Below are positions 46,869 through 58,430 of a DNA stretch of 64,000 nucleotides, in pieces. How positions within the stretch are numbered: position 1 is the first letter of the stretch; each line of letters opens with the position of its first letter. The notes below the pieces were generated by a model that made no database searches, was not told where the DNA came from, and saw only the letters and a program-made list of their open reading frames with translations. This stretch comes from an uncultured bacterium (GTDB lineage: Bacteria > Bacteroidota > Ignavibacteria > OLB7). The position numbers and the translations under genes were made by a program. The stretch is taken from contig CBHYLN010000006.1 of assembly GCA_966128725.1 (NCBI GenBank), positions 6,236 to 70,235 on the forward strand, in the 5' to 3' direction.

Positions 46869-47396
46869 ATGGCAGAACCGTTTATCGGCCAGATCATCCA
46901 GGCTGGGTTCAACTTCGCACCGCGTGGCTACGCTACGTGTGATGGACAGCTCTTGTCCATCGCGCAGAATACGGCGCTCTTCTCGCTGCTCGGCACCACA
47001 TTCGGCGGCGACGGACGTGTCACGTTCGGGCTGCCCGATCTCCGTGGCCGTGTAGCGATTCATCAGGGCCAGGGTCCGGGCCTTACCCCCCGTGTGATGG
47101 GCGAGGCAGCAGGCTCTGAAACGGTAACGCTGATCAACAGCGAAATGCCGATGCACAACCACCTGATGGCGGTCACCAATGTGTCGGGTGCGGTCGCGAC
47201 GCCAAACGGCAACTTCATCGCCGCGAGCAGCGATGCTAACGCCGTTGTCACGTTCCGTCCCACGTCCGACGGGTCCACGCTGAATCCGCAGTCAATCGGC
47301 CTGGCCGGTGGCAATCAGCCGCATAACAATATGCAGCCGTACCTCGTGATCAACTTCTGCATCGCGCTGCAGGGCATCTTCCCGTCGCGCAATTGA
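46869..47396 (+). CDS. phage tail-collar domain protein (MdpB-like), copy 1
   Basis: 175 aa. MAEPFIGQII..FNFAPRGYATCDGQLLSIAQNTALFSLLGTTFGGDG...LPDLRGR is the hallmark start of collar-only proteins. AGGAG Shine-Dalgarno 8 nt upstream. Confidence 0.8.
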   Translation: MAEPFIGQIIQAGFNFAPRGYATCDGQLLSIAQNTALFSLLGTTFGGDGRVTFGLPDLRGRVAIHQGQGPGLTPRVMGEAAGSETVTLINSEMPMHNHLMAVTNVSGAVATPNGNFIAASSDANAVVTFRPTSDGSTLNPQSIGLAGGNQPHNNMQPYLVINFCIALQGIFPSRN

Positions 47397-47450: not shown

Positions 47451-47978
47451 ATGGCAGAACCATTTATCGGTCAGATCATAATGACCGGGTTCAACTTCGC
47501 ACCGCGAGGCTACGCAACATGTGATGGGCAGCTCTTGTCCATTGCGCAGAACACGGCCCTTTTCTCGCTGCTGGGCACCACGTTCGGCGGCGACGGACAG
47601 GTCACGTTCGGATTGCCCGACCTGCGTGGTCGTGTCGGGATTCATCAGGGGCAGGGCCCCGGCCTGACCAATCGCACAATGGGTGAGGCTTCGGGCACTG
47701 AAACGGTAACGCTGATCAGCAGCCAGATGCCGATGCACAACCACTTGATGGCAACCACCAACGTGTCGGGTGCGCTCGGGACACCGAACGGCAACTTCAT
47801 CGCCGCAAGCAGTGCGCCAGGCACCGCGGTGATGTTCCGCCCTACGTCGGACGGATCCACGTTGAATCCGCAGTCCATCGGTTTGGCTGGCGGCAATCAA
47901 CCGCACAACAACATGCAGCCGTATCTGGTGATCAGCTTCAGCATCGCGTTGGAAGGAATCTTCCCGTCGCGCAACTAG
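47451..47978 (+). CDS. phage tail-collar domain protein (MdpB-like), copy 2
   Basis: 175 aa, ~77% identical to copy 1. Own AGGAG RBS. Confidence 0.8.
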   Translation: MAEPFIGQIIMTGFNFAPRGYATCDGQLLSIAQNTALFSLLGTTFGGDGQVTFGLPDLRGRVGIHQGQGPGLTNRTMGEASGTETVTLISSQMPMHNHLMATTNVSGALGTPNGNFIAASSAPGTAVMFRPTSDGSTLNPQSIGLAGGNQPHNNMQPYLVISFSIALEGIFPSRN

Positions 47979-48944: not shown

Positions 48945-49319
48945 TCAGTTAAACACGGATTCGTACTGCCATCCGGTCTCACCCGGACCAACCGGTACCA
49001 CTCCCATCTGGAACTGCCCCACCTCCGGGTGATCGAACTGGTACAATCCCTGGCGTGTCAACGCCATTTCATCTCCACGAAACAAGAGAACAAATGGATC
49101 GGTACGCACATACCCTGCCTTGCCCAGGGCCCTGCCATCCATGGGCTTAAGCTGAAGGGGCTCGGCACTGATCAGCTCCAGATTCACGGTGACCCCATCC
49201 GGGCGAGTGACGACGAAGTTGGTGCCAACGTGCCGCACGAAGGTCTCGTATGTAAAGGGACTGGGGGTTGGCACAAATGCATTATCCACGGGGCATTCCT
49301 CTTGGCAAAGTTGGTCCAC
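48945..49319 (-). CDS. hypothetical small protein (124 aa), no recognised family
   Basis: ORF with noticeably lower GC than its surroundings, downstream of and co-oriented with the giant fibre-like gene. No motif recognised. Confidence 0.4.
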   Translation of the reverse strand: MDQLCQEECPVDNAFVPTPSPFTYETFVRHVGTNFVVTRPDGVTVNLELISAEPLQLKPMDGRALGKAGYVRTDPFVLLFRGDEMALTRQGLYQFDHPEVGQFQMGVVPVGPGETGWQYESVFN

Positions 49320-49454: not shown

Positions 49455-52400
49455 TTACCAGCCATACCAGTTGCCGGCGCCATCGGAATACAGGCGGCGG
49501 TTACCGCCGGCATTGCCGAATGCCATGTTATTCTGGCCGTCGATCTTGTCGGTTCCATTCGGCTGAATGGTCAGAACCGGCAGAAGCGCATTGTTGTACT
49601 TCTCGATCTTGATAATCAGGATCTCACCGGCAGTTGTTGCCGGCTGCAGATTGATCGTGAAGTTCGTACCGGCCGACATATCAACACCGATGATGTCGTC
49701 GGCACCAACAACGTTGTACGACGTATTACCGGCATTTGCGATAAGCCCGGTGCGAGCAAACAGAATGGCGCCACCGCCAATCGAACCCCACTTCAACGTG
49801 GCGTTGTTGCCCGCAACCGCCTGTACCTGCAGCACCTGATCAACCCCCGTTGGGGCGGCATTCGGGAGCGTGTAGGTAAGATCGGCGGCCTGCGCCTGTG
49901 CCTTGATCGCGGTATAGTTCACACCCGAGCCACTGGGCTCAAGCAAACGCAACTCGCGGGCAGTGTTGTCGTTGTTGCCGATTGCGATGTGCGCGTTCGT
50001 TGTCGTGAACGTGCCCGCGGCGATATCCGCGCCCTGAATCGTACCGTCGGCGATCTTGGCACTGGTAACCGCACCATCGGCGATGTGTGCCGTGTTCACC
50101 GCCGAGGTAAGCAGCTTCAGGCCCGAAACGGCACTGTCGGCCAGCTTCGAGGTCGTCACCGTACCGTTGGCAACCTTCGAGGTCGTGATCGCGTTGGCCA
50201 CGATGTCAGCGTTCTGGATGCTGTTGACAAGCGACAGCTTCGAGTACACAATCGCCGCCGTCGGCGAAACATCGGCGTCAACGATCGTGCCGTCCAGGAT
50301 CTTCGCGCTCGTCACGGCATTGGCCGCGATTACCGGGTTCGGATACGTGCCGGTAAGATCACCGCCCGCCGCGCCGCTTGGCGGCAACGAGGTTGGCGCA
50401 CCGCTCAGCTTCGAGTAGCTGATGCCGTTGGCAACCTTGGCGTCGGTAACCGCACCATCGGCGATGTGCGCCGTGTTCACCGCCGAGGTAAGCAGCTTCA
50501 GGCCCGAAACGGCACTGTCGGCCAGCTTCGAGGTCGTCACCGTACCGTTGGCAACCTTCGAGGTCGTGATCGCGTTGGCCACGATGTCAGCGTTCTGGAT
50601 GCTGTTGACAAGCGACAGCTTCGAGTACGCAATCGCCGCCGTCGGCGAAACATCGGCATCAACGATCGTGCCGTCCAGGATCTTCGCGCTCGTCACGGCG
50701 TTGGCCGCGATCGTCGGGTTCGGATACGTGCCGGTGAGATCACCACCCGCGGCGCCACCCGGCGACGGGCTGCCCCACACGATGTTGGTGCCGTTGTACG
50801 TGATCGCCTGGCCCGAGGCCGCACCCGTTGGGCTCAACTTCGGAAGCGTGATCGATCCGTCGATATGATCGGCCGTAACCAGGCTGTTCGTCAGGTTCAG
50901 CTTCGAGTATGCGATCGCTGCTCCGGCCGCAACATCGGCGTTGACGATCGTGCCGTCCAGGATCTTCGCGCTCGTCACGGCGTTGGCCGCGATCGTCGGG
51001 TTCGGATACGTGCCGGTGAGATCACCACCCGCGGCGCCACCCGGCGACGGGCTGCCCCACACGATGTTGGTGCCGTTGTACGTGATCGCCTGGCCCGAGG
51101 CCGCACCCGTTGGGCTCAACTTCGGAAGCGTGATCGATCCGTCGATATGATCGGCCGTAACCAGGCTGTTCGTCAGGTTCAGCTTCGAGTATGCGATCGC
51201 TGCTCCGGCCGCAACATCGGCGTTGACGATCGTGCCGTCCAGGATCTTCGCGCTGTTGACCGAGCCGTCGACAAGGTCACCAGTGACGATGCTGTTGGCA
51301 AGCGCCAGCTTCGAGTACGCAATCGCCGCCGTCGGCGAGACGTCGGCATTGACGATCGTGCCGTCGAGAATCTTCGCGGTCGTGACCGCACCGTCGGCAA
51401 GGTCCGCCGTGACAACGGTGCCATCGGCGATCTTCGCGGTAGTGACCGAGCCATCGGCAAGGTCCGCCGTGACGATCGTGCCATCGACGATGTCGCCGCT
51501 GACAATGCTGTTGGCAAGCGCCAACTTCGAGTACGCAATCGCGGCCGCGGCGGCAACGTCGGCGTTCACAATCGTGCCGTCGAGAATCTTCGCGCTGTTG
51601 ACCGCGCCGTCGGCAAGGTCCGCCGTGGCGATCGTGCCATCGACGATGTCGCCGCTGACGATGCTGTTGGCGAGCGCCAGCTTCGAGTACGCAATCGCGG
51701 CCGCGGCGGCAACGTCAGCGTTCACAATTGTGCCGTCGAGGATCTTCGCGCTGTTTACCGCATCGTTGGCGATATCCTGCGTCTTGACCTCGCCGTCCTT
51801 GATCTTCACGGACGTGACGGAACTGTCGGCAAGGATGGACTCGGTCACCGAACCGATGGCGAGCTTGTTGGTCGTCACCGCGCCGTTGGCCAGATCGGCC
51901 GTGGCGATGGTGCCGTCGAGAATCTTGTCCGACGTAACGGCATCCGGAGCAAGCTTCGGATTGGTCACCGCGCCATTGGCCAGCTTCACCGTGTTGATCG
52001 CCGAGTCGGCAATGTATTCACGCTTGATGCCCCGTCCGGCGATCGAGAGCGACGTGGTCGGTCCGTTCGGATCGGAAACGATGATGGCATCGTCATTGCT
52101 CTGGATGGTGTTGATCGTGCCAACACTCAACGAGGTCACCGTGATCTTGCCCGTGGCATTGTTCTTGGTGATCTGGATGTTGGTACCGCCCAGAATTTCG
52201 AGATCGCCCTTCATTCCGTTCAGGCTGCTCACAACCAGACCGGGCAGCGAAGTCCAGGCAACGCCGGCGCCGGTGGAAACAAGGATCTGGCCCGCGGTGC
52301 TGCCCAGGGAGCTGAGCTTGGCCGGGGTCACCGAGCCGTCGGCAATGCTGGAAGTGCCGATCGCGCCTGGCGCAACCGCGCGCGCGGAATCGGCCATGAT

Positions 52401-52778
52401 CGCCCGCATGCTATACGGCGAACTGGTGAGCTGGACACGCGGCGTCAACTCGGTGCCGCCATCGATACCAAACCCAAGCCAATAGGTACGGTCGAACTGA
52501 ACGCTCGACGGGATACCACCCGGGGTGGATGCACCGATGATCAGGTTGTAGATGCCCTTGTTTACCGACACAGTCTGTGTCTCGGAGAACAGAGCCGTGC
52601 CACCGGTCTCTACATCGTAGAGCTTTACGGCAATGGCGTGATTGCCCTGCACGGGGTTACCACCTGCATTGGTGATATATCCCTGATAGGATATCGTGCG
52701 TGGAGCCTGGGCCCAGGCTGTTGTTGCCATCAGGAGTCCGGCAACCGCAACGCCGAAATACCTACGTGGATGCTTCAT
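49455..52778 (-). CDS. large secreted tail-fibre-like repeat protein (putative surface fibre/adhesin)
   Basis: 1107 aa from the ATG at 52776-52778 (MKHPRRYFGVAVAGLLMATTAWAQA signal peptide). N-terminal ISYQGYITNAGGNPVQG...LYDVETGGTALFSETQTVSVNKGIYNLIIG domain, then ~800 aa of DGTI[VA].AD.A.GAVT.AKI fibre-type repeats. ~180-aa C-terminal non-repeat domain ending GNWYGW. Confidence 0.7.
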   Translation of the reverse strand: MKHPRRYFGVAVAGLLMATTAWAQAPRTISYQGYITNAGGNPVQGNHAIAVKLYDVETGGTALFSETQTVSVNKGIYNLIIGASTPGGIPSSVQFDRTYWLGFGIDGGTELTPRVQLTSSPYSMRAIMADSARAVAPGAIGTSSIADGSVTPAKLSSLGSTAGQILVSTGAGVAWTSLPGLVVSSLNGMKGDLEILGGTNIQITKNNATGKITVTSLSVGTINTIQSNDDAIIVSDPNGPTTSLSIAGRGIKREYIADSAINTVKLANGAVTNPKLAPDAVTSDKILDGTIATADLANGAVTTNKLAIGSVTESILADSSVTSVKIKDGEVKTQDIANDAVNSAKILDGTIVNADVAAAAAIAYSKLALANSIVSGDIVDGTIATADLADGAVNSAKILDGTIVNADVAAAAAIAYSKLALANSIVSGDIVDGTIVTADLADGSVTTAKIADGTVVTADLADGAVTTAKILDGTIVNADVSPTAAIAYSKLALANSIVTGDLVDGSVNSAKILDGTIVNADVAAGAAIAYSKLNLTNSLVTADHIDGSITLPKLSPTGAASGQAITYNGTNIVWGSPSPGGAAGGDLTGTYPNPTIAANAVTSAKILDGTIVNADVAAGAAIAYSKLNLTNSLVTADHIDGSITLPKLSPTGAASGQAITYNGTNIVWGSPSPGGAAGGDLTGTYPNPTIAANAVTSAKILDGTIVDADVSPTAAIAYSKLSLVNSIQNADIVANAITTSKVANGTVTTSKLADSAVSGLKLLTSAVNTAHIADGAVTDAKVANGISYSKLSGAPTSLPPSGAAGGDLTGTYPNPVIAANAVTSAKILDGTIVDADVSPTAAIVYSKLSLVNSIQNADIVANAITTSKVANGTVTTSKLADSAVSGLKLLTSAVNTAHIADGAVTSAKIADGTIQGADIAAGTFTTTNAHIAIGNNDNTARELRLLEPSGSGVNYTAIKAQAQAADLTYTLPNAAPTGVDQVLQVQAVAGNNATLKWGSIGGGAILFARTGLIANAGNTSYNVVGADDIIGVDMSAGTNFTINLQPATTAGEILIIKIEKYNNALLPVLTIQPNGTDKIDGQNNMAFGNAGGNRRLYSDGAGNWYGW
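50685..51248. repeat. intragenic perfect tandem duplication, 2 x 282 bp (94 aa x 2)
   Basis: Track residues 517-610 and 611-704 of the giant protein are identical (AKILDGTIVNADVAAGAAIAYSKLNLTNSLVTADHIDGSITLPKL...TIAANAVTS). A 2 x 153-bp repeat lies further 5' and a near-perfect 2 x 381-bp repeat at ~50022-50684. Confidence 0.8.
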
Positions 52779-52804
52779 GGAGATCCCTCTCGTCATTGTG
52801 AGTA

Positions 52805-53085: not shown

Positions 53086-55485
53086 TTACTTGGCCGGTCC
53101 GTCGTCGAACACGATTCCGTTGCCCTTTACAACCGGCGTCCCGGGTACAACGCGTGGCTCGGTAACGTAATCGGCGCCGCTGCCGCGATCGATCAACAGC
53201 CCGATCGAACCGGAGCCTCGTACACGGTTTGCGTTGCCACCGCCCTGGCTGAGCGCCGAATCGCTCAGCTTGGCGTAATACATATCGTCGCCCGCCGCAT
53301 CCAGAAGCCACGCGAACGACACGGTCAACGCCGAACCCTGGCTACTGTTGGAGCCCCGATACGTGTCGTTGCCCGATGCGTCCTCAAGGCAGCCGGCCGA
53401 CCAGTCGTGCGCGTTCCCCTGCTCCAGCCCCGCGTAGGCATCATACATATCGTCGCCGGCATCGTCGAGCAACGCCCCGAACGACAGGTGAATCCCACTT
53501 CCCTGCGAATACTGACCGGCCGTGTACCGATCGGCACCGGCGCCATCGTGCAATATGCCGAGCGCATACCAGTAGCTGCCGCCCTGGCTGAAGTAGTCCG
53601 AAGCGTACACATCGTCGCCGGTACGATCGGTAAGCACGCCAATGCCTCCGTCGGTCCCGATACCGGTGCCCCACGGACGCATGCCGAAACCGAAGCCCTG
53701 CGACATCGCCAGATACGCCCGGTTCGGATACCGCGAGTCGGGAATCTTCCACCCTGCCCTGTAGGCATCATTCCCCTCGAACTCCAGAATGGCGCCAAAG
53801 CCCCGGGCATAACCAAATCCCTGCGAATACACCTGTGAGGTATACTGGTCGTCGCCGGCGCGATCACACAACAGACCGATCCCCAGGAACGCCGCCCCCT
53901 GCGAACACCAGCGGGCATCGTAGACATCGTTGCCGGCATGATCTACCAATACACCAACGCCGAGAAGCCCGGCGCCCTGCGAGAAGTGACCGGCACGATA
54001 GGTGTCGTCGCCGGCAAGATCGAACAGAACATCCACGGCCCCCAGGCCCGCGGCCTGCCCTGTTGCGGTGGTGTTGTAGAAGTCGTTGCCGGCAACATCG
54101 CCAACATAACGGAAGCCGCCCATGCCAACCGGCGGAAGCTGGTACAGGTCATCGCCGCCAACATCGATGATCACGGCGAAGTCACCGGTATAACGATTAT
54201 GCCCCGGGCCGCCGATCACGATTCTCCCAAAGGGTGTAGATGTCACCTGCAACACCGTGCCTTCCACGCCGGGGACCGCAACGGGCACCGACGATCGGAT
54301 TGGCGGAAGTGAGCGCACGAACGCAACCAACCACGACGAATCCGCAAGCCCGGCCAGCAGTGCCCCGGCCTGGAACAGCGAGATGCGGTCCAGGCCATCG
54401 GCGGCACCCAGTAACGCAGCCATCCGCTTCTCCTCGGCAATACGAAGCTCGCGGTGGCGCACGGGGTCCTTCACGGTATCCAGCCCGGCCTCCCAGTTGC
54501 TGTCGATATCAAGCAAACCGCTCAGGCCCCGCACCAACGAGTCAAGCGGGTACCGGATCGCACGAAACGCCTCGTGCAGTTCGTTGGCCACAGCCGTGCA
54601 ACGGTTGCGCAGCGTGGACATCGAGGCGGGCAGAATCGGTTCGGGCGCCACTGTTGGCAGCGAGACATCAAGCCCGGAAGCGGCGGTGGCCACGGCGCCG
54701 GCAATACCGTTGCGTTCTACGGAGCCCCAGATATCGGTGCAGACCTGGCGCGCAAACGCGCCGATGCGTGTGGGGTTATGATGCAGATAGGTGACGGCGT
54801 TCAACCGCCATGGGCTGCGCCGCTGCGTAAACGGTACGGTGCAGAAATCCTGATCGGCGACTACACACATCTGCTTCTGAATTGTCCGGGCACGCTCTGT
54901 CAGATTGGTTTGCTCCAGCGTCCGGGCAAGCCAGCTTTGCTCCACAACCGGCCCCAGCCCGGCCGGAGCCGGCGGCACCGGCATTGGCGCTCGTTCGGGC
55001 GCACGCACCGGCACCATCAGATCGCGGGCAACACCGGCGCGAACAATCCGGAATCGAGCGGTGTCCCCGGGCGACATCCCGCGCACGGTCATGTTCAGAT
55101 AGTCATCGTACTGATAGACGGTATCACCGATTGGGTGGCCGTTGAGCGAAACAATCAGGTCCCCGATCAACATGCCGCCATCGTCGGCAAGCCAGTGTGG
55201 CATCACGTGCCACACACGCACGGGCCGCTCCCCTGCCTGCACGCCCGGAATCAGCGCCATGCTGTCGTCGGGGATCGCGTTGACATACACACCAAGGCGC
55301 GGGCGCAGCGGATCGGGCTGCCCGCCCCACACGAACGGTGGTAGATCGAACATCGACAGGCTGACGCGCATAAGGCTGTCGGCCCGTTGACGATTGTACT
55401 GCGCTGCAAGCGGGCGCGCAGCGGCAAGATGAAGCAGCACAAACGCGAGAACGGCAACGAGGAAGCAACGAGCTGTGATTCGCAT
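53086..55485 (-). CDS. secreted PDZ-domain protein with C-terminal Gly/Asp/Tyr-rich ~23-aa repeats (predicted beta-helix/beta-roll), unknown family
   Basis: 799 aa from the ATG at 55483-55485 (signal peptide MRITARCFLVAVLAFVLLHLAAARPLAAQ). PDZ-like segment (GMLIGDLIVSLNGHPIGD), helical middle, then ~12 units of pattern h..D.AG[ND]D.Y.......SQG.G..G. Confidence 0.55.
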   Translation of the reverse strand: MRITARCFLVAVLAFVLLHLAAARPLAAQYNRQRADSLMRVSLSMFDLPPFVWGGQPDPLRPRLGVYVNAIPDDSMALIPGVQAGERPVRVWHVMPHWLADDGGMLIGDLIVSLNGHPIGDTVYQYDDYLNMTVRGMSPGDTARFRIVRAGVARDLMVPVRAPERAPMPVPPAPAGLGPVVEQSWLARTLEQTNLTERARTIQKQMCVVADQDFCTVPFTQRRSPWRLNAVTYLHHNPTRIGAFARQVCTDIWGSVERNGIAGAVATAASGLDVSLPTVAPEPILPASMSTLRNRCTAVANELHEAFRAIRYPLDSLVRGLSGLLDIDSNWEAGLDTVKDPVRHRELRIAEEKRMAALLGAADGLDRISLFQAGALLAGLADSSWLVAFVRSLPPIRSSVPVAVPGVEGTVLQVTSTPFGRIVIGGPGHNRYTGDFAVIIDVGGDDLYQLPPVGMGGFRYVGDVAGNDFYNTTATGQAAGLGAVDVLFDLAGDDTYRAGHFSQGAGLLGVGVLVDHAGNDVYDARWCSQGAAFLGIGLLCDRAGDDQYTSQVYSQGFGYARGFGAILEFEGNDAYRAGWKIPDSRYPNRAYLAMSQGFGFGMRPWGTGIGTDGGIGVLTDRTGDDVYASDYFSQGGSYWYALGILHDGAGADRYTAGQYSQGSGIHLSFGALLDDAGDDMYDAYAGLEQGNAHDWSAGCLEDASGNDTYRGSNSSQGSALTVSFAWLLDAAGDDMYYAKLSDSALSQGGGNANRVRGSGSIGLLIDRGSGADYVTEPRVVPGTPVVKGNGIVFDDGPAK

Positions 55486-55805
55486 GGCGCTGTTGAACGA
55501 GAGAGAGAGAGGATTTCCGTGAACGGGAAGAATCCGCGAAGCTACAATACTTACCGCCGATGCCCTAACAGGCTGCCAGCGACTATTGCTGATCAGTCCG
55601 GGGGGACCTGAGCGGCGGTTCAACAGACGACAGGAGTGTTGCGAGGGATGGCTATGATGAACGTGGAGAGGAGGTGATAACGTGGATCAGAATCGGATGC
55701 ACGGCACACCCGACGCTGGATCACATCCGCGCCCGGATCGCGCTTGCCAGTCCTTACCGGCCGAGCGCGTATCCAGGCTGCCGACGGTGCGCGGCTGACC
55801 GCGCA

Positions 55806-56102
55806 TCAACGATGACGACGCCCGCGCTGTATGTCCTCGCGCACTTCCAGAATCTCGGCGCGAAGCCCAAGGATACCGAACATCGGCGCCCACAGGCCGA
55901 TGAACAGCGCGATTTCGTGACGGCTTTGTTCGTTGCCGCCATGTGCCAGCAGAAACAGGTACAGCGAAAGCACAATCGACAACCCAGCCAGGGCATACCA
56001 TACGGTTGGGCCTGCCAGCAACGGCAACCTTTGCTCCGGACGCTGCTTCTCCGGCGCAGCCGTCTCGGTTCGAATCTCGATGATCTTTGGTTCCATGCTC
56101 AT
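55806..56102 (-). CDS. small two-TM membrane protein
   Basis: 98 aa from the ATG at 56100-56102 (MSMEPKIIEI...). Two hydrophobic helices (VWYALAGLSIVLSLYLFLLA, IALFIGLWAPMFGILGL). Confidence 0.4.
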   Translation of the reverse strand: MSMEPKIIEIRTETAAPEKQRPEQRLPLLAGPTVWYALAGLSIVLSLYLFLLAHGGNEQSRHEIALFIGLWAPMFGILGLRAEILEVREDIQRGRRHR

Positions 56103-56169: not shown

Positions 56170-57123
56170 TCAGAAACTGGCATTCACGGTAACACGGTGG
56201 TTGCCGCCCAGGCGGTCGAGACTGTTGAACGCATAATCGAATCGATATCCCTTCACAGCCACACCCAGCCCAGCCGAAAAACCGGCCAATCCCTTCGATT
56301 GCCCAAACGCCACATCCTGGCGCACCCGGTTATTATAGCCAACGCGCACACGCAGCGGCTTGGAGAGTGTGAACTCGCCACCAACACTGAAGGAGCTGAA
56401 CCGGGAAAGGAAGTCATCGGTTTCGTCCAACAGCCGGCTGAAATTCACGGCAACCAACAGCGGAAGCCCGCGCAACTGGTGCGAGGCGCCGATCTTCAGA
56501 TCCAGCGGCAGGCGTTCGTTGTCCGCACCGAAGGAGGAGACCTGCGAGCCGAGGTTCAGCAGCGCAAGGCCCGCCTGCACGCGATTGGCGGTATCCATGT
56601 AGTGCAGGCCGCCATCCAGCGCCAACGCGGCCGAGCCGTAGCTGTCGATCGTTGAGAATATCGCCTTGCCGTTGATGCCAGCGGCAAATCCCTCGCCAAG
56701 CTCGGTTCCCCAACCAACAACGGCCACGATGTCGTTCGAGCCGAAGGTGCCGTTAAGCTGGCCGGCACGATCGGTACGATCGAACGAACCGTAATTGGTA
56801 TACGAGACACCGAACCCGACCTTGCCCACGCCCTCCAACGACGTTGCAATCGTGGCCGAGCCGCTGTTGATATCCAGCAGATGCTTGAAGAAGGTGAACG
56901 ACGCCTGCGTGGAATCCACGGAGTTGAGCGTCGCCGGATTGTAGTACATGCCCGACGGATCGTTGGCGATCGTAACGAACGCCCCACCCATGCCAGCGGC
57001 ACGCGCGGAGACGTCGTTGTGCAGAAAATCGTATACGTATACGGCCTGCGCGCGCGCCTGCACCGCCGAGACGCATGCCACGATCGCGATTGCCAGAACG
57101 ATCCGCGAAGGAGTCAGGAACAT
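56170..57123 (-). CDS. PorV/PorQ-family (T9SS-associated) outer-membrane beta-barrel protein
   Basis: 318 aa from the ATG at 57121-57123. Signal peptide, then DVSARAAGMGGAFVTIANDPSGMYYNPATL motif shared by PorV/PorQ-type FadL-like barrels. C-terminal aromatic residue. Confidence 0.55.
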   Translation of the reverse strand: MFLTPSRIVLAIAIVACVSAVQARAQAVYVYDFLHNDVSARAAGMGGAFVTIANDPSGMYYNPATLNSVDSTQASFTFFKHLLDINSGSATIATSLEGVGKVGFGVSYTNYGSFDRTDRAGQLNGTFGSNDIVAVVGWGTELGEGFAAGINGKAIFSTIDSYGSAALALDGGLHYMDTANRVQAGLALLNLGSQVSSFGADNERLPLDLKIGASHQLRGLPLLVAVNFSRLLDETDDFLSRFSSFSVGGEFTLSKPLRVRVGYNNRVRQDVAFGQSKGLAGFSAGLGVAVKGYRFDYAFNSLDRLGGNHRVTVNASF

Positions 57124-57327
57124 CAGGTATTGTCCAGAAGATTGCCGCCATGGGTTACGCCCCATCGCACCAAGGTATGCCGCCGAATCGAATCGGCAAT
57201 GAACGGCCGTCAATAAGCGGAGAGCCGCCAACATTTGCAAGGCCAACATGCGCCGCACTCCGGCGTCCTGAAATCGCCGGATGCCCGGGCGCGACAGCAC
57301 GATCGGCTTGCCCTGAAAGGCCGCCAA

Positions 57328-57780
57328 TCAGTGAGCCATTTCCGGAACGGCCGGGAACCACTGATACAGCATCATGTACACCAGCACGCCGGTAACCGAG
57401 ACGTACAGCCAGATGGGCAATGTCCACCGGGCAATTCGGCGATGTGGATCGTAGCGCGCGGCCAGTCCGCGACGAATCGTGATAATGGCCAACACCGGCA
57501 CGCAGGCCGCCAGGACCACGTGCGAGATCAGCATCGCGAAATACACCGTGCGGATTGCGCCGGTACCGCCGAACGGCGAGGCCACGCCACCACGCAGGGC
57601 ATGGTAGGTGAGATAACAGGCGAGGAACAACACCGAAACGAAAAACGCCGACAGCATCACCTTGCGATGGGCCGCCACACGCTTGCGACGGATAAGGATG
57701 TACCCGATCACGAGCAGCACGGTGGCGACAGCGTTCAGCGATGCATTGATCGCCGGCAGAATCATCACATCGAAATTCAT
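57328..57780 (-). CDS. DUF420 (CtaM-like) membrane protein of cytochrome oxidase operons
   Basis: 150 aa, 4 TM. Located between the SCO1 and cox genes as in aa3 oxidase operons. ATGA overlap with SCO1 stop. Confidence 0.5.
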   Translation of the reverse strand: MNFDVMILPAINASLNAVATVLLVIGYILIRRKRVAAHRKVMLSAFFVSVLFLACYLTYHALRGGVASPFGGTGAIRTVYFAMLISHVVLAACVPVLAIITIRRGLAARYDPHRRIARWTLPIWLYVSVTGVLVYMMLYQWFPAVPEMAH

Positions 57781-58430
57781 CACTGGGCCTCCTTCACAAG
57801 CAGCGCGACATCGGCCAGCAGCTTGCGCTGTGCCTCGGGTTCGTCGCTGCTGTAATACCCACGGATATGCCCCTGCGAGTCCACCAGCACAAATCGCTTC
57901 GAGTGGATGATCGGCTCGGCCGGATCGGTCCCTTCCTCGATACCAAGATGAAACGCGTTCTTGGCCAGATCCTGCATTTGGTCGCGGCTTCCGGTAAGGA
58001 ACAGCCACTTGTCGGCACGGGCCTTGTAGGTTTCGGCGTAGTCCCGAAGCTTGCCGGGGGTATCGTTGTCGGGGTCAACCGTGAACGATACCAGCAACGC
58101 GTTGCCCACCGAAGCAAGCGAATCCTGCAACTGCCCCATCTTGGCGGACATCGCCGGGCAGCTTCCGGCACAACGGGTGAAAATGAAGCTGGCCACCCAC
58201 ACCTTGCCGTGCAGGGCATCCAGGTTCATCGGCTTGCCGCTTCGTTCGGTAAGCTGCGCGCCGGGCACTGCGCCAAAGTCGGCCAGCCCGGAGGATGGCT
58301 GCACGCCGCGGAGCCGCACAAGAAACAGGATCATCGCAACCACCGCGGCCGCGGCAATCACGTACAGGGCAATCAGCAAGGGCGACCGGCGCGCGCGCGG
58401 CATCGTGCCCGTGGTTATCTCTGGAGTCAT
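57780..58430 (-). CDS. SCO1/SenC copper chaperone (thioredoxin-like)
   Basis: N-terminal TM, then FIFTRCAGSCP (CxxxC copper site) and a conserved His region. Confidence 0.8.
   Translation of the reverse strand: MTPEITTGTMPRARRSPLLIALYVIAAAAVVAMILFLVRLRGVQPSSGLADFGAVPGAQLTERSGKPMNLDALHGKVWVASFIFTRCAGSCPAMSAKMGQLQDSLASVGNALLVSFTVDPDNDTPGKLRDYAETYKARADKWLFLTGSRDQMQDLAKNAFHLGIEEGTDPAEPIIHSKRFVLVDSQGHIRGYYSSDEPEAQRKLLADVALLVKEAQ

What the first reader, a model, noticed from the sequence alone, without database searches (positions are those of the whole stretch)
53086..55485. Secreted PDZ protein with ~12 copies of an unrecognised 23-aa Gly/Asp/Tyr repeat (hxxDxAG[ND]DxYxxxxxxxSQGxGxxG)
After a signal peptide and PDZ-like domain there is a helical linker. 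Then comes a regular array of units such as LFDLAGDDTYRAGHFSQGAGLLGVG, LVDHAGNDVYDARWCSQGAAFLGIG and LCDRAGDDQYTSQVYSQGFGYARG. The AG[ND]D.Y core recalls RTX GGxGxD Ca-binding turns, but the 23-aa period with a second SQG.G turn does not match an RTX beta-roll or any repeat family I recognise. This suggests a calcium-binding beta-helix, tethered by a PDZ domain, of unknown function. The gene has its own 320-bp leader and sits between the fibre gene and the PorV/PorQ-like gene.
Basis: partly seen in the sequence, partly recalled or inferred. Interest (0 to 1): 0.6.

Follow-up and report, generated by a model that had tools for sequence, protein, structure and literature searches.

The report
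Exported PDZ protein with unannotated beta-solenoid
This gene encodes an exported protein whose C-terminal 390 residues form a 12-coil beta-solenoid that matches no Pfam or NCBIfam model and no solved structure, yet turns up in thousands of protein clusters across many mostly uncultured bacterial phyla, with function still unknown.

Summary
The gene (53086-55485, minus strand, 799 aa) encodes four parts: a Sec signal peptide, an HtrA-type PDZ domain, a conserved ~210-aa helical domain (not a linker), and a 390-aa domain of 12 repeats. The repeat period is 26-27 aa, not 23.

AlphaFold2 models the repeats as a beta-solenoid with high confidence (pLDDT about 92). The solenoid gave no significant match in Pfam, NCBIfam, PDB sequences or Foldseek searches of PDB and BFVD. 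The nearest structure, not significant, is the Ca2+-bound antifreeze beta-helix MpAFP_RIV. Each coil carries one RTX-like turn (D-x-[AG]-G-[ND]-D-x-Y), so Ca2+ binding is plausible but untested.

The helical-plus-solenoid core is a large unannotated family: 4,435 clusters at 50% identity and at least 575 GTDB species in a capped scan. About 23 of 85 loci carry a PDZ domain, as here. In 51 of 85 loci a HEAT-repeat module is fused or encoded by an adjacent gene. A nearly invariant patch (R603, Y638, W639, Y659, H666, H693, D694) marks a probable functional site. The function is unknown. The PorQ and fibre neighbours are lineage-specific.

The parts
53086..55485 (-). Coding sequence, 799 aa plus stop. 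The ATG at 55485 is the supported start; the mechanical ORF extends to TTG 55623.
   Evidence: The N-termini of 21 full-length orthologues align at M1 and all carry signal peptides.
55402..55485 (-). Sec-type signal peptide, about aa 1-28 (MRITARCFLVAVLAFVLLHLAAARPLAA|Q).
   Evidence: Read directly from the sequence. Orthologues all show n-region, h-region and an A-x-A|Q end. No dedicated predictor was available.
55006..55308 (-). HtrA-type PDZ domain, about aa 60-160. The carboxylate-binding loop is conserved (PRLGxY), as is the IGDxxxxxNGxPIGD segment.
   Evidence: Pfam PDZ_6, PDZ_2 and PDZ hits are below threshold. NCBIfam matches the PDZ region of degP_htrA_DO. The A1 profile matches DegP PDZ1 at E=4.7e-6. 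Foldseek matches DegP, DegQ, DegS and MucD PDZ domains at E about 1e-4, prob 1.00.
54313..54933 (-). Conserved all-helical domain, aa 185-391, with the motif P(F/W)RLxxVxxLxxxP. It is homologous to the N-terminal domain of the HEAT-type family members.
   Evidence: AF2 secondary structure. hhalign of the PDZ-type helical domain against the HEAT-fused N-domain gave Prob 99.0, E=4e-18 over 186 columns. phmmer to the TA06 protein P0185 gave E=1.7e-16.
53089..54270 (-). 390-aa beta-solenoid domain, aa 406-799. It has 12 coils of 26-27 aa, each with (h)xhLxD-x-[AG]-G-[ND]-D-x-Y and most with a (S/A)QG turn, plus N- and C-terminal cap strands.
   Evidence: motifs. (AF2 pLDDT 91.6 and 92.4). (relatives match the domain end to end, profile positions 2-391).
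53404..53700 (-). Nearly invariant polar and aromatic patch on coils 6-9: Q596, R603, Q634, Y638, W639, Y659, Q661, H666, Q689, H693, D694. This is the probable functional site.
   Evidence: Conservation over 151 sequences aligned to the domain HMM: R603 99%, Y638 98%, W639 94%, Y659 99%, H666 100%, H693 96%, D694 100%. R603, Y638, W639, H666 and D694 are also invariant in the 12 divergent domains of A3.
53641..53796 (-). Coil 6 (aa 564-615) with a 25-aa insertion (GWKIPDSRYPNRAYLAMSQGFGFGMRPWGTGIGTDGG). It carries R603, and model confidence is lower here.
   Evidence: Unit of 52 aa. pLDDT drops to 60-75 in this stretch.
55486..55805 (-). Upstream intergenic stretch of 320 bp. No recognisable RNA element or promoter consensus was found.
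   Evidence: The promoter scan does not cover Bacteroidota-type promoters.

Best explanation
The gene encodes a Sec-exported, most probably periplasmic, protein of four parts: a signal peptide, an HtrA-type PDZ domain, a conserved helical domain and a 12-coil beta-solenoid.

The helical domain plus solenoid is the conserved core of a large, unannotated family found in many phyla.

Each 26-27-aa coil is closed by one RTX-like turn, D-x-[AG]-G-[ND]-D-x-Y. I infer that the stacked Asp, Gly and Asp residues bind Ca2+ between successive coils and stiffen the solenoid, as in RTX beta-rolls and MpAFP_RIV.

I infer that the working surface is a nearly invariant Gln/Arg/Tyr/Trp/His/Asp patch on coils 6-9. 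It probably binds, and perhaps chemically processes, a periplasmic polymer or ligand.

I also infer that the PDZ domain docks this module onto the free C-terminus of a partner or substrate protein. In most other lineages a HEAT-repeat module, fused or encoded by the next gene, takes that place.

Shown: the domain architecture, the repeat, the predicted fold, the family's size and distribution, the PDZ/HEAT alternation and the conserved patch. Inferred: Ca2+ binding, periplasmic location, the roles of the patch and of the PDZ.
For: - Architecture and fold. The AF2 full-length model has pLDDT 91.6 and pTM 0.93. The solenoid alone has pLDDT 92.4 and pTM 0.91.
- Repeat statistics. Ten motif matches against 0.08 expected.
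- PDZ. Profile and fold matches to DegP, DegQ and DegS PDZ domains, with a conserved carboxylate-binding loop.
- Export. Signal peptides in all orthologues and in the HEAT-type relatives examined. No T9SS C-terminal domain.
- Family size. 4,435 representative clusters at E<=1e-3 and 2,555 at E<=1e-30, matching the whole 390-aa domain. At least 575 GTDB species, in Nitrospinota, Brocadiaceae and other Planctomycetota, Zixibacteria, Ignavibacteria, Eisenbacteria, WOR-3, TA06, Cloacimonadota and others.
- Shared helical domain. hhalign Prob 99.0, E=4e-18.
- PDZ/HEAT alternation. HEAT is fused in 22 and adjacent in 29 of 85 loci. About 23 loci are PDZ-type: 15 by a Kapabacteria-derived HMM, plus about 8 Brocadia-type loci that I assign from the Pfam PDZ hit on the Brocadia protein P0132. 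In a separate sample of 38 long-N-terminus members, 22 carry a Pfam PDZ.
- Conserved patch..
- RTX-like turn. The nearest structure is the Ca2+-bound MpAFP_RIV, PDB 3p4g. The RTX and MpAFP consensus motifs come from PMC3492233.
Against: - No test of Ca2+ binding was possible.
- Pfam HemolysinCabind does not match, even at E<=10.
- The 3p4g match is not significant (E=0.6, TM 0.36-0.46).
That the patch residues lie together on the surface is therefore inferred only from their equal register in successive coils and from the DSSP strand pattern.
- No conserved neighbour other than HEAT points to a pathway.
- Nothing distinguishes ligand binding from catalysis.
- The PDZ scores below Pfam's threshold in this particular protein.
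Confidence: 0.55

Rival explanations
1. The solenoid is an enzyme, not just a binding module. On this reading it is a beta-helix carbohydrate-active enzyme (lyase, epimerase or hydrolase-like) acting on a cell-envelope polysaccharide such as peptidoglycan. H666, D694, R603 and Tyr would be the catalytic residues, and the PDZ or HEAT modules would be regulatory or targeting parts.
For: - H666 and D694 are 100% conserved, R603 99%, Y638 and Y659 98-99%, and there is a Gln ladder, all across sequences that are only 30-45% identical. That degree of conservation is typical of active sites.
- From my own knowledge, not tested here: Gln, Arg, His, Tyr and Asp make up the catalytic sets of uronate lyases and C5-epimerases, several of which are beta-helices.
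- Rare fusions join this core to peptide-cleaving domains: Peptidase_M14 in P0136, and a C45/AAT Ntn-hydrolase plus PDZ in P0064. These fit a substrate that has both glycan and peptide parts.
Against: - No sequence or fold match to any CAZy-type beta-helix. Pfam Beta_helix and pectate lyase families do not hit the domain, and Foldseek against PDB finds nothing significant.
- The two peptidase fusions are single sequences on short metagenomic contigs.
- No polysaccharide-synthesis or export genes recur nearby.
Confidence: 0.25
2. It is a cell-surface or secreted accessory of the neighbouring fibre protein, exported with help from the T9SS. This is the genomic context the first reader stressed.
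For: The gene lies between a PorQ gene (NCBIfam T9SS_PorQ, 230 bits against a cut-off of 220) and a 1,113-aa DUF5907 fibre gene. The same order is found in locus L004.
Against: - PorQ and fibre homologues occur next to the gene only in the window and in L004, out of 86 loci.
- Orthologues at 48-58% identity sit in unrelated contexts.
- There is no Por_Secre_tail domain, and the protein ends with the last coil.
- The family is abundant in phyla not known to have a T9SS, such as Nitrospinota and Brocadiaceae. The absence of T9SS there is my own knowledge.
Confidence: 0.05
3. It is an ordinary RTX or antifreeze-type Ca2+ beta-roll protein that profile libraries simply miss.
For: The motif x-G-[ND]-D-x-(aromatic) matches positions 4-8 of GGxGxDxUx. 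The best Foldseek hit is 3p4g. One member gives a very weak Peptidase_M10_C hit (E=7.4).
Against: - There is one such turn per 26-27 aa, not tandem nonapeptides.
- HemolysinCabind is not matched.
- The protein has an N-terminal Sec signal instead of a C-terminal T1SS signal.
- There is no Thr/Asx ice-binding array.
- The domain has a fixed length of 390 aa and a non-repetitive conserved patch.
Confidence: 0.05
4. It is a periplasmic metal-handling protein, for example for copper. His666, His693 and Asp694 would form the metal site, and the protein would be linked functionally to the adjacent cytochrome oxidase assembly genes (SCO1, DUF420, CtaA/CtaB).
For: A His/His/Asp cluster is nearly invariant. 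In the window and in L004 the gene lies just downstream of SCO1/SenC, DUF420 and the cox genes. From my own knowledge: the periplasmic beta-helix protein NosD serves metal-centre assembly.
Against: - The cox neighbourhood is not conserved in the other orthologues or in the wider family.
- H693 is replaced by Trp in divergent members.
- There are no Cys or Met motifs typical of Cu(I) sites.
Confidence: 0.07

Closest known systems
MpAFP region IV (PDB 3p4g), the Ca2+-bound RTX-derived beta-solenoid of the Marinomonas primoryensis ice-binding adhesin
   Same: A single-chain beta-solenoid with one G-x-G-N-D-x-U type turn per coil. The MpAFP consensus is xGTGNDxuxuGGxuxGxux (PMC3492233). It is the best, though not significant, Foldseek hit for the solenoid model.
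   Different: - Its coils are 19 aa, against 26-27 aa here.
- The match has E=0.6 and TM 0.36-0.46.
- MpAFP is a T1SS-secreted giant adhesin with a Thr/Asx ice-binding face.
- This protein has a Sec signal, a second (S/A)QG turn per coil, a Gln ladder and a non-repetitive His/Asp/Arg/Tyr/Trp patch.
RTX beta-roll (Pfam HemolysinCabind PF00353; the C-terminal domain of serralysins)
   Same: The D-x-[AG]-G-[ND]-D-x-Y core reproduces G4, Asx5, D6 and the hydrophobic position 8 of the nonapeptide GGxGxDxUx. Stacked Asp/Gly turns are the Ca2+ sites in RTX rolls (established knowledge).
   Different: There are no tandem nonapeptides and no Pfam match at E<=10. Asp replaces Gly1. The coil is three-sided and 26-27 aa long, rather than an 18-aa two-sided roll. 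Export is through Sec rather than the T1SS.
HtrA-family PDZ domains (DegP PDZ1, DegQ, DegS)
   Same: The N-terminal domain matches them by profile (E=4.7e-6) and by fold (Foldseek prob 1.00, rmsd about 3 A over about 105 residues). It keeps the carboxylate-binding loop.
   Different: No trypsin-like protease domain is attached. Here the PDZ precedes a helical domain and a solenoid.
Periplasmic or secreted right-handed beta-helix proteins of the pectate-lyase / CASH type (for example NosD, AlgG, PL1/PL6 lyases)
   Same: They share the general idea of an exported solenoid with a ladder of polar residues and a functional groove along several coils. This comparison rests on my own knowledge.
   Different: No sequence or Foldseek match was found. 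The Asp-Gly-Asp RTX-like turn in every coil is not a feature of those families. The handedness of this model could not be checked.

Membership tests
RTX / HemolysinCabind beta-roll | Tandem nonapeptides GGxGxDxUx recognised by PF00353 | tested here: not met
   No PF00353 hit at E<=1 for the protein or at E<=10 for 12 family members. There is one RTX-like turn per 26-27 aa.
RTX / HemolysinCabind beta-roll | C-terminal T1SS secretion signal and no cleavable N-terminal signal peptide | tested here: not met
   A classical N-terminal signal peptide is present in this protein and in all 21 orthologues.
RTX / HemolysinCabind beta-roll | Ca2+ bound in the Gly/Asp turns and Ca2+-dependent folding | not testable with these tools
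This needs biophysics or a structure.
MpAFP_RIV-type Ca2+ beta-solenoid | 19-21-aa coil with consensus xGTGNDxuxuGGxuxGxux | tested here: not met
   Coils are 26-27 aa, and only the G-N-D-x-U part is shared.
MpAFP_RIV-type Ca2+ beta-solenoid | Significant structural superposition on 3p4g | tested here: inconclusive
PDZ domain (HtrA type) | Match to PDZ profiles | tested here: met
   The protein alone scores below the Pfam cut-off (22.3 against 27 bits). The orthologue profile matches DegP PDZ1 at E=4.7e-6. Many orthologues carry PF13180 or PF17820 in precomputed annotation.
PDZ domain (HtrA type) | PDZ fold | tested here: met
   Foldseek of the AF2 model against DegP, DegQ, DegS, MucD and HtrA structures gave prob 1.00, E down to 7.7e-5 and rmsd 2.3-3.8 A over about 105 columns.
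PDZ domain (HtrA type) | Carboxylate-binding loop (x-hydrophobic-G-hydrophobic) | tested here: met
   R-L-G-V at aa 62-65 lies within the conserved PRLGxY of the orthologue consensus. Actual peptide binding was not tested.
HtrA/DegP protease | Trypsin-like serine protease domain N-terminal to the PDZ | tested here: not met
   Only the PDZ part of TIGR02037 matches (profile positions 235-333; 25.7 bits against a cut-off of 416). No protease domain appears in Pfam.
Pectate-lyase-like right-handed beta-helix (Pfam Beta_helix, PbH1 repeats) | Profile match or significant fold match | tested here: not met
   No Pfam hit on the solenoid. Foldseek hits to beta-helix proteins against PDB and BFVD all have E>2.
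T9SS cargo protein | C-terminal sorting domain (Por_Secre_tail or type B CTD) | tested here: not met
   No such Pfam hit. The sequence ends directly after the last coil (...GIVFDDGPAK).
Unannotated helical + solenoid family (defined here) | End-to-end match to the 390-aa solenoid profile, preceded by the PFRL-motif helical domain | tested here: met
   The window protein is the seed. Relatives match profile positions 2-391. The helical domains are homologous at hhalign Prob 99.0.

The most novel reading that the evidence does not exclude
The helical-domain plus solenoid core could be a previously undescribed periplasmic machine found in at least 575 species of a dozen or more, mostly uncultured, phyla, including anammox bacteria and Nitrospinota. 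In this reading it is a Ca2+-stiffened beta-solenoid enzyme or receptor. Its invariant Arg/His/Asp/Tyr/Trp groove acts on a cell-envelope polymer, with peptidoglycan the obvious candidate. Interchangeable PDZ or HEAT modules, and rarely M14 or C45 peptidase domains, couple it to protein or peptide partners.
Probability: 0.25. Interest if true: 0.65.

Novelty: new variant of a known kind. Interest (0 to 1): 0.45.

Why it matters
Confident beta-solenoid predictions with no family assignment are not rare. This one stands out for three reasons.

- It defines a large family with a fixed architecture: more than 4,000 clusters at 50% identity.
- The family is spread over many poorly studied phyla, yet has no Pfam or NCBIfam model and no significant match to a solved structure.
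- It has an active-site-like invariant patch and a clear Rosetta-stone link to HEAT and PDZ peptide- or protein-binding modules.

If the patch proves catalytic or binds a specific ligand, this would add a new periplasmic function shared by anammox bacteria, nitrite oxidisers and members of the FCB superphylum. It would also add a new coil geometry, 26-27 aa with one RTX-like turn, to the set of Ca2+-type solenoids. At the least it deserves a domain-family entry, so that thousands of 'hypothetical' or 'PDZ/HEAT repeat domain-containing' proteins are annotated consistently.

Tried and rejected
- Foldseek of the full-length model returned only PDZ hits. Foldseek of the solenoid alone against PDB and BFVD returned nothing significant.
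- phmmer and profile searches of PDB sequences with the solenoid gave only chance hits (E=0.019 and 1.7) or none.
- Small genes directly upstream of relatives in L005, L006 and L001 looked like a possible conserved partner. They are unrelated to each other and absent from the window.
- PorQ and fibre adjacency as a functional clue was rejected. It is found only in the window and L004.
- A first hhalign of the helical domains was contaminated by N-terminally truncated PDZ-type sequences in the 'short' set. I repeated it with HEAT-fused proteins only.
- An Rfam scan of the leader and gene gave only a sub-threshold FMN hit inside the coding region. The promoter and terminator scan was uninformative.
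- Literature searches found no paper describing this family.
- An exact look-up of the window protein's contig found nothing on record, so the organism is inferred only from its orthologues. The named ones are mostly labelled Kapabacteria, Chlorobi or Bacteroidetes MAGs, and one Armatimonadetes.
- Recurrent sigma54 response-regulator and type IV pilin genes lie upstream in some Zixibacteria, Ignavibacteria and WOR-3 loci. They were noted but are too patchy to build on.
Full report
**1. What is at the coordinates**

The minus strand carries an ORF that ends at 53086. Read from the ATG at 55485 it gives 799 aa. The mechanical ORF can be extended to a TTG at 55623. However, 21 full-length orthologues (45-63% identical) align from M1.

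The protein ends directly after its last repeat, and Pfam finds no T9SS C-terminal sorting domain. What is shown is export through Sec. A periplasmic location is the simplest reading, and release from the cell is not supported.

**2. The repeat**

The core motif D..G.D.[YF] occurs 10 times in the last 395 residues. Shuffles of that region's own composition give 0.08 on average, with at most 3 in 20,000 trials.

Twelve units can be laid out. Their anchors are at D441, 463, 489, 515, 541, E568, 620, 647, 674, 702, 729 and 766. Their lengths are 22, 26, 26, 26, 27, 52, 27, 27, 28, 27 and 37 aa, plus a terminal unit. The period is therefore 26-27 aa, not 23. One unit carries a 25-aa insertion.

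Eight units also contain an (S/A)QG turn. There is no tandem repeat at DNA level, so the array is ancient rather than recently amplified.

**3. Domains and fold**

*PDZ.* Pfam finds only weak PDZ matches (PDZ_6 at 22.3 bits against a cut-off of 27). NCBIfam matches only the PDZ part of the DegP model. A profile of the orthologues matches DegP PDZ1 in the PDB at E=4.7e-6.

*Full-length model.* AlphaFold2 with 30 sequences gives a very confident model (pLDDT 91.6, pTM 0.93). It shows the signal-peptide helix, a PDZ at about 60-160, an all-helical domain at 185-391, and a beta-solenoid from about 411 to 794. Foldseek of this model against the PDB returns HtrA-family PDZ domains (prob 1.00, E down to 7.7e-5). 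The carboxylate-binding loop (PRLGxY) is conserved among orthologues.

*Solenoid alone.* A second model of aa 405-799 is equally confident (pLDDT 92.4, pTM 0.91). It has no significant Foldseek match in the PDB or in BFVD. The best PDB hit is 3p4g, the Ca2+-bound beta-helical antifreeze region of MpAFP. With E=0.6 and TM 0.36-0.46 that is a lead, not a classification.

**4. The family**

*Size.* A profile of 12 trimmed solenoid domains (A3) was scored against 1.84 billion representative proteins. It found 4,435 clusters at E<=1e-3 and 2,555 at E<=1e-30. Nearly all of the 150 listed hits match the whole domain, profile positions about 2-391. This is a fixed-length domain, not a variable repeat array.

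The best 80 come from one further Kapaibacterium and from Nitrospinota, Brocadiaceae and other Planctomycetota, Zixibacteria, Ignavibacteria, Eisenbacteria, WOR-3, TA06, Cloacimonadota, Verrucomicrobiota, Acidobacteriota, Armatimonadota, Deltaproteobacteria and a Gallionella.

*Annotation.* Every source calls these proteins 'hypothetical', 'PDZ domain-containing' or 'HEAT repeat domain-containing'. The precomputed Pfam column never covers the solenoid.

**5. Architectures**

The helical region is not a linker. hhalign compared the 250 residues before the solenoid in PDZ-type proteins with the N-terminal domain of 53 HEAT-fused proteins. It gave Prob 99.0 and E=4e-18 over 186 columns, with a shared P-F/W-R-L-x-x-V-x-x-L-x-x-x-P motif. 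An earlier run was contaminated by truncated sequences and was discarded. The conserved core is therefore the helical domain plus the solenoid.

Around that core I made crude gene calls in 86 loci and clustered the products.

- **HEAT-type.** In 51 of 85 loci a HEAT-repeat module is either fused to the C-terminus (22) or encoded by a nearby gene within two positions (29). In 28 loci this is the next gene downstream on the same strand. The separate HEAT protein examined has its own signal peptide. This is a Rosetta-stone relation.
- **PDZ-type.** About 23 loci are PDZ-type. Fifteen were called by a Kapabacteria-derived HMM. About 8 Brocadia-type loci scored 'neither' with that HMM, and I assign them to the PDZ type from the Pfam PDZ hit on the Brocadia protein P0132. 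The type occurs in Kapabacteria, Nitrospinota, TA06 and Brocadia.
- **Peptidase fusions.** Two rare fusions join the core to peptide-cleaving domains: Peptidase_M14 in P0136, and a C45/AAT Ntn-hydrolase plus PDZ in P0064. Each is a single sequence on a short contig.

No other neighbour is conserved across phyla. Recurrent genes are lineage-specific:

- LpxK and WaaA in Nitrospinota.
- A radical-SAM gene in Brocadia.
- TatC, NrdR and dCMP deaminase in one Zixibacteria/Ignavibacteria group.
- A sigma54 response regulator plus type IV pilins in another such group and in WOR-3.

**6. Local context in the window**

Upstream lies a PorQ gene (NCBIfam T9SS_PorQ, 230 bits against a cut-off of 220). 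Downstream lies a 1,113-aa DUF5907 fibre gene. This order recurs in L004, the locus of orthologue P0003. It does not recur in orthologues at 48-58% identity. Among all 86 loci, PorQ and fibre homologues are adjacent only in the window and in L004. The position therefore says nothing about function.

The 320-bp gap upstream contains no Rfam match or consensus promoter. The gap exists only if the small ORF 55806-56102 is a gene. L004 has no counterpart to that ORF.

**7. How it probably works**

*Per-coil residues.* In every coil the invariant residues are the Asp that ends the first strand, a Gly three residues later, a second Asp, and a Tyr (D-x-[AG]-G-[ND]-D-x-Y). These are 92-100% conserved over 151 sequences.

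*RTX-like turn.* This reproduces positions 4, 5, 6 and 8 of the RTX nonapeptide GGxGxDxUx and of the MpAFP_RIV coil xGTGNDxu... (PMC3492233). In those proteins the stacked turns bind Ca2+ between successive coils. I infer the same here, with about 0.5 confidence. It could not be tested.

*Conserved patch.* A second set of nearly invariant residues is not part of the repeat. These are R603 (99%), Y638 (98%), W639 (94%), Y659 (99%), H666 (100%), H693 (96%) and D694 (100%), together with Gln in the QG turns of coils 5-9. R603, Y638, W639, H666 and D694 are also invariant in the 12 divergent domains of A3.

*Register.* W639, H666 and D694 each lie eight residues before the anchor Asp of the next coil. 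They should therefore form a line along the solenoid axis.

*Reading.* Such a patch is what one expects of a catalytic or specific ligand-binding site. The PDZ here, or the HEAT module elsewhere, would couple that site to a protein partner. I cannot decide between binding and catalysis. The residue types and the peptidase fusions make a cell-envelope polymer, such as peptidoglycan, a reasonable but unproven target.

**8. Comparison with known families**

The protein works like a Ca2+-type beta-solenoid (an RTX roll, or MpAFP_RIV), but it is not a member of either.

- There are no tandem nonapeptides and no PF00353 match.
- The coil is 26-27 aa rather than 18 or 19 aa.
- Export is through Sec rather than the T1SS.
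- There is no ice-binding array.

It is not an HtrA protease, because the protease domain is absent. It is not a T9SS cargo, because it has no C-terminal sorting domain. It is not detectably a pectate-lyase-type beta-helix.

**9. Verdict**

Ca2+ binding and function remain hypotheses.

The find is a new variant of a known kind, an RTX-like-turn beta-solenoid. It defines a large, widely distributed and unannotated domain family with a Rosetta-stone link to PDZ and HEAT modules.

Interest is moderate. It merits a family definition and a biochemical look, but nothing here overturns current understanding.

Noticed in passing
window 49455-52796 (-): A 1,113-aa fibre-like protein with DUF5907 repeats. 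It has long internal DNA repeats up to 96% identical (for example 50044-50343 against 50425-50724), which suggests recent internal duplication. Its N-terminus weakly resembles the NCBIfam Bdellovibrio 'mosaic adhesive trimer' fibre family (E=1.7e-7, below the cut-off).
   Followed up: partly
window 46869-47396 (+), 47451-47978 (+), 48945-49319 (-): Two tandem 175-aa phage-tail Collar-domain proteins (PF07484, E about 1e-27) and a DUF6916 protein lie next to the fibre gene. The same set is found in L004. This looks like a conserved fibre/collar cassette of unknown role in a non-phage context.
   Followed up: partly
window 56173-57126 (-): The upstream outer-membrane protein is a PorQ (NCBIfam T9SS_PorQ, 230.1 bits against a cut-off of 220), not merely 'PorV/PorQ-like'. 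It follows directly on a cytochrome oxidase assembly cluster with SCO1/SenC at 57783-58430 and DUF420 at 57331-58008.
   Followed up: yes
window 55806-56102 (-): A small 98-aa ORF with two predicted hydrophobic helices lies between PorQ and the PDZ gene. It has no family match and no counterpart in the syntenic locus L004, so it may not be a real gene.
   Followed up: partly
window 53640-53770 (-): A sub-threshold Rfam FMN riboswitch match (25.9 bits against a gathering score of 66.2, E=0.005) lies inside the coding sequence of the solenoid. It is almost certainly chance.
   Followed up: no
L030, L038, L041 and about 25 other loci (for example L041:7218-8144): In HEAT-type relatives the HEAT-repeat part is a separate, signal-peptide-bearing gene of about 310 aa immediately downstream of the solenoid gene. 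In other genomes it is fused to the C-terminus. This is a Rosetta-stone pair.
   Followed up: yes
L006:1932-5235; L033, L038, L066, L073 upstream of the match: A sigma54-dependent response regulator and one or two type IV pilin-like (N_methyl) genes recur just upstream of the solenoid gene in WOR-3, Zixibacteria and Ignavibacteria loci. This is a possible regulatory or functional link that was not pursued.
   Followed up: no
P0136 and P0064 (metagenomic proteins): These are rare fusions of the helical + solenoid core with a Peptidase_M14 carboxypeptidase (P0136) or with a C45/AAT Ntn-hydrolase plus PDZ (P0064). Each is a single sequence on a short contig.
   Followed up: partly
P0031 (Thermoplasmatota archaeon) and P0033: These distant proteins use the same LhDhxGxDxY coil unit in longer arrays, and they lack the conserved His/Asp/Arg patch. 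The coil appears to be a general building block beyond the fixed 390-aa domain.
   Followed up: no
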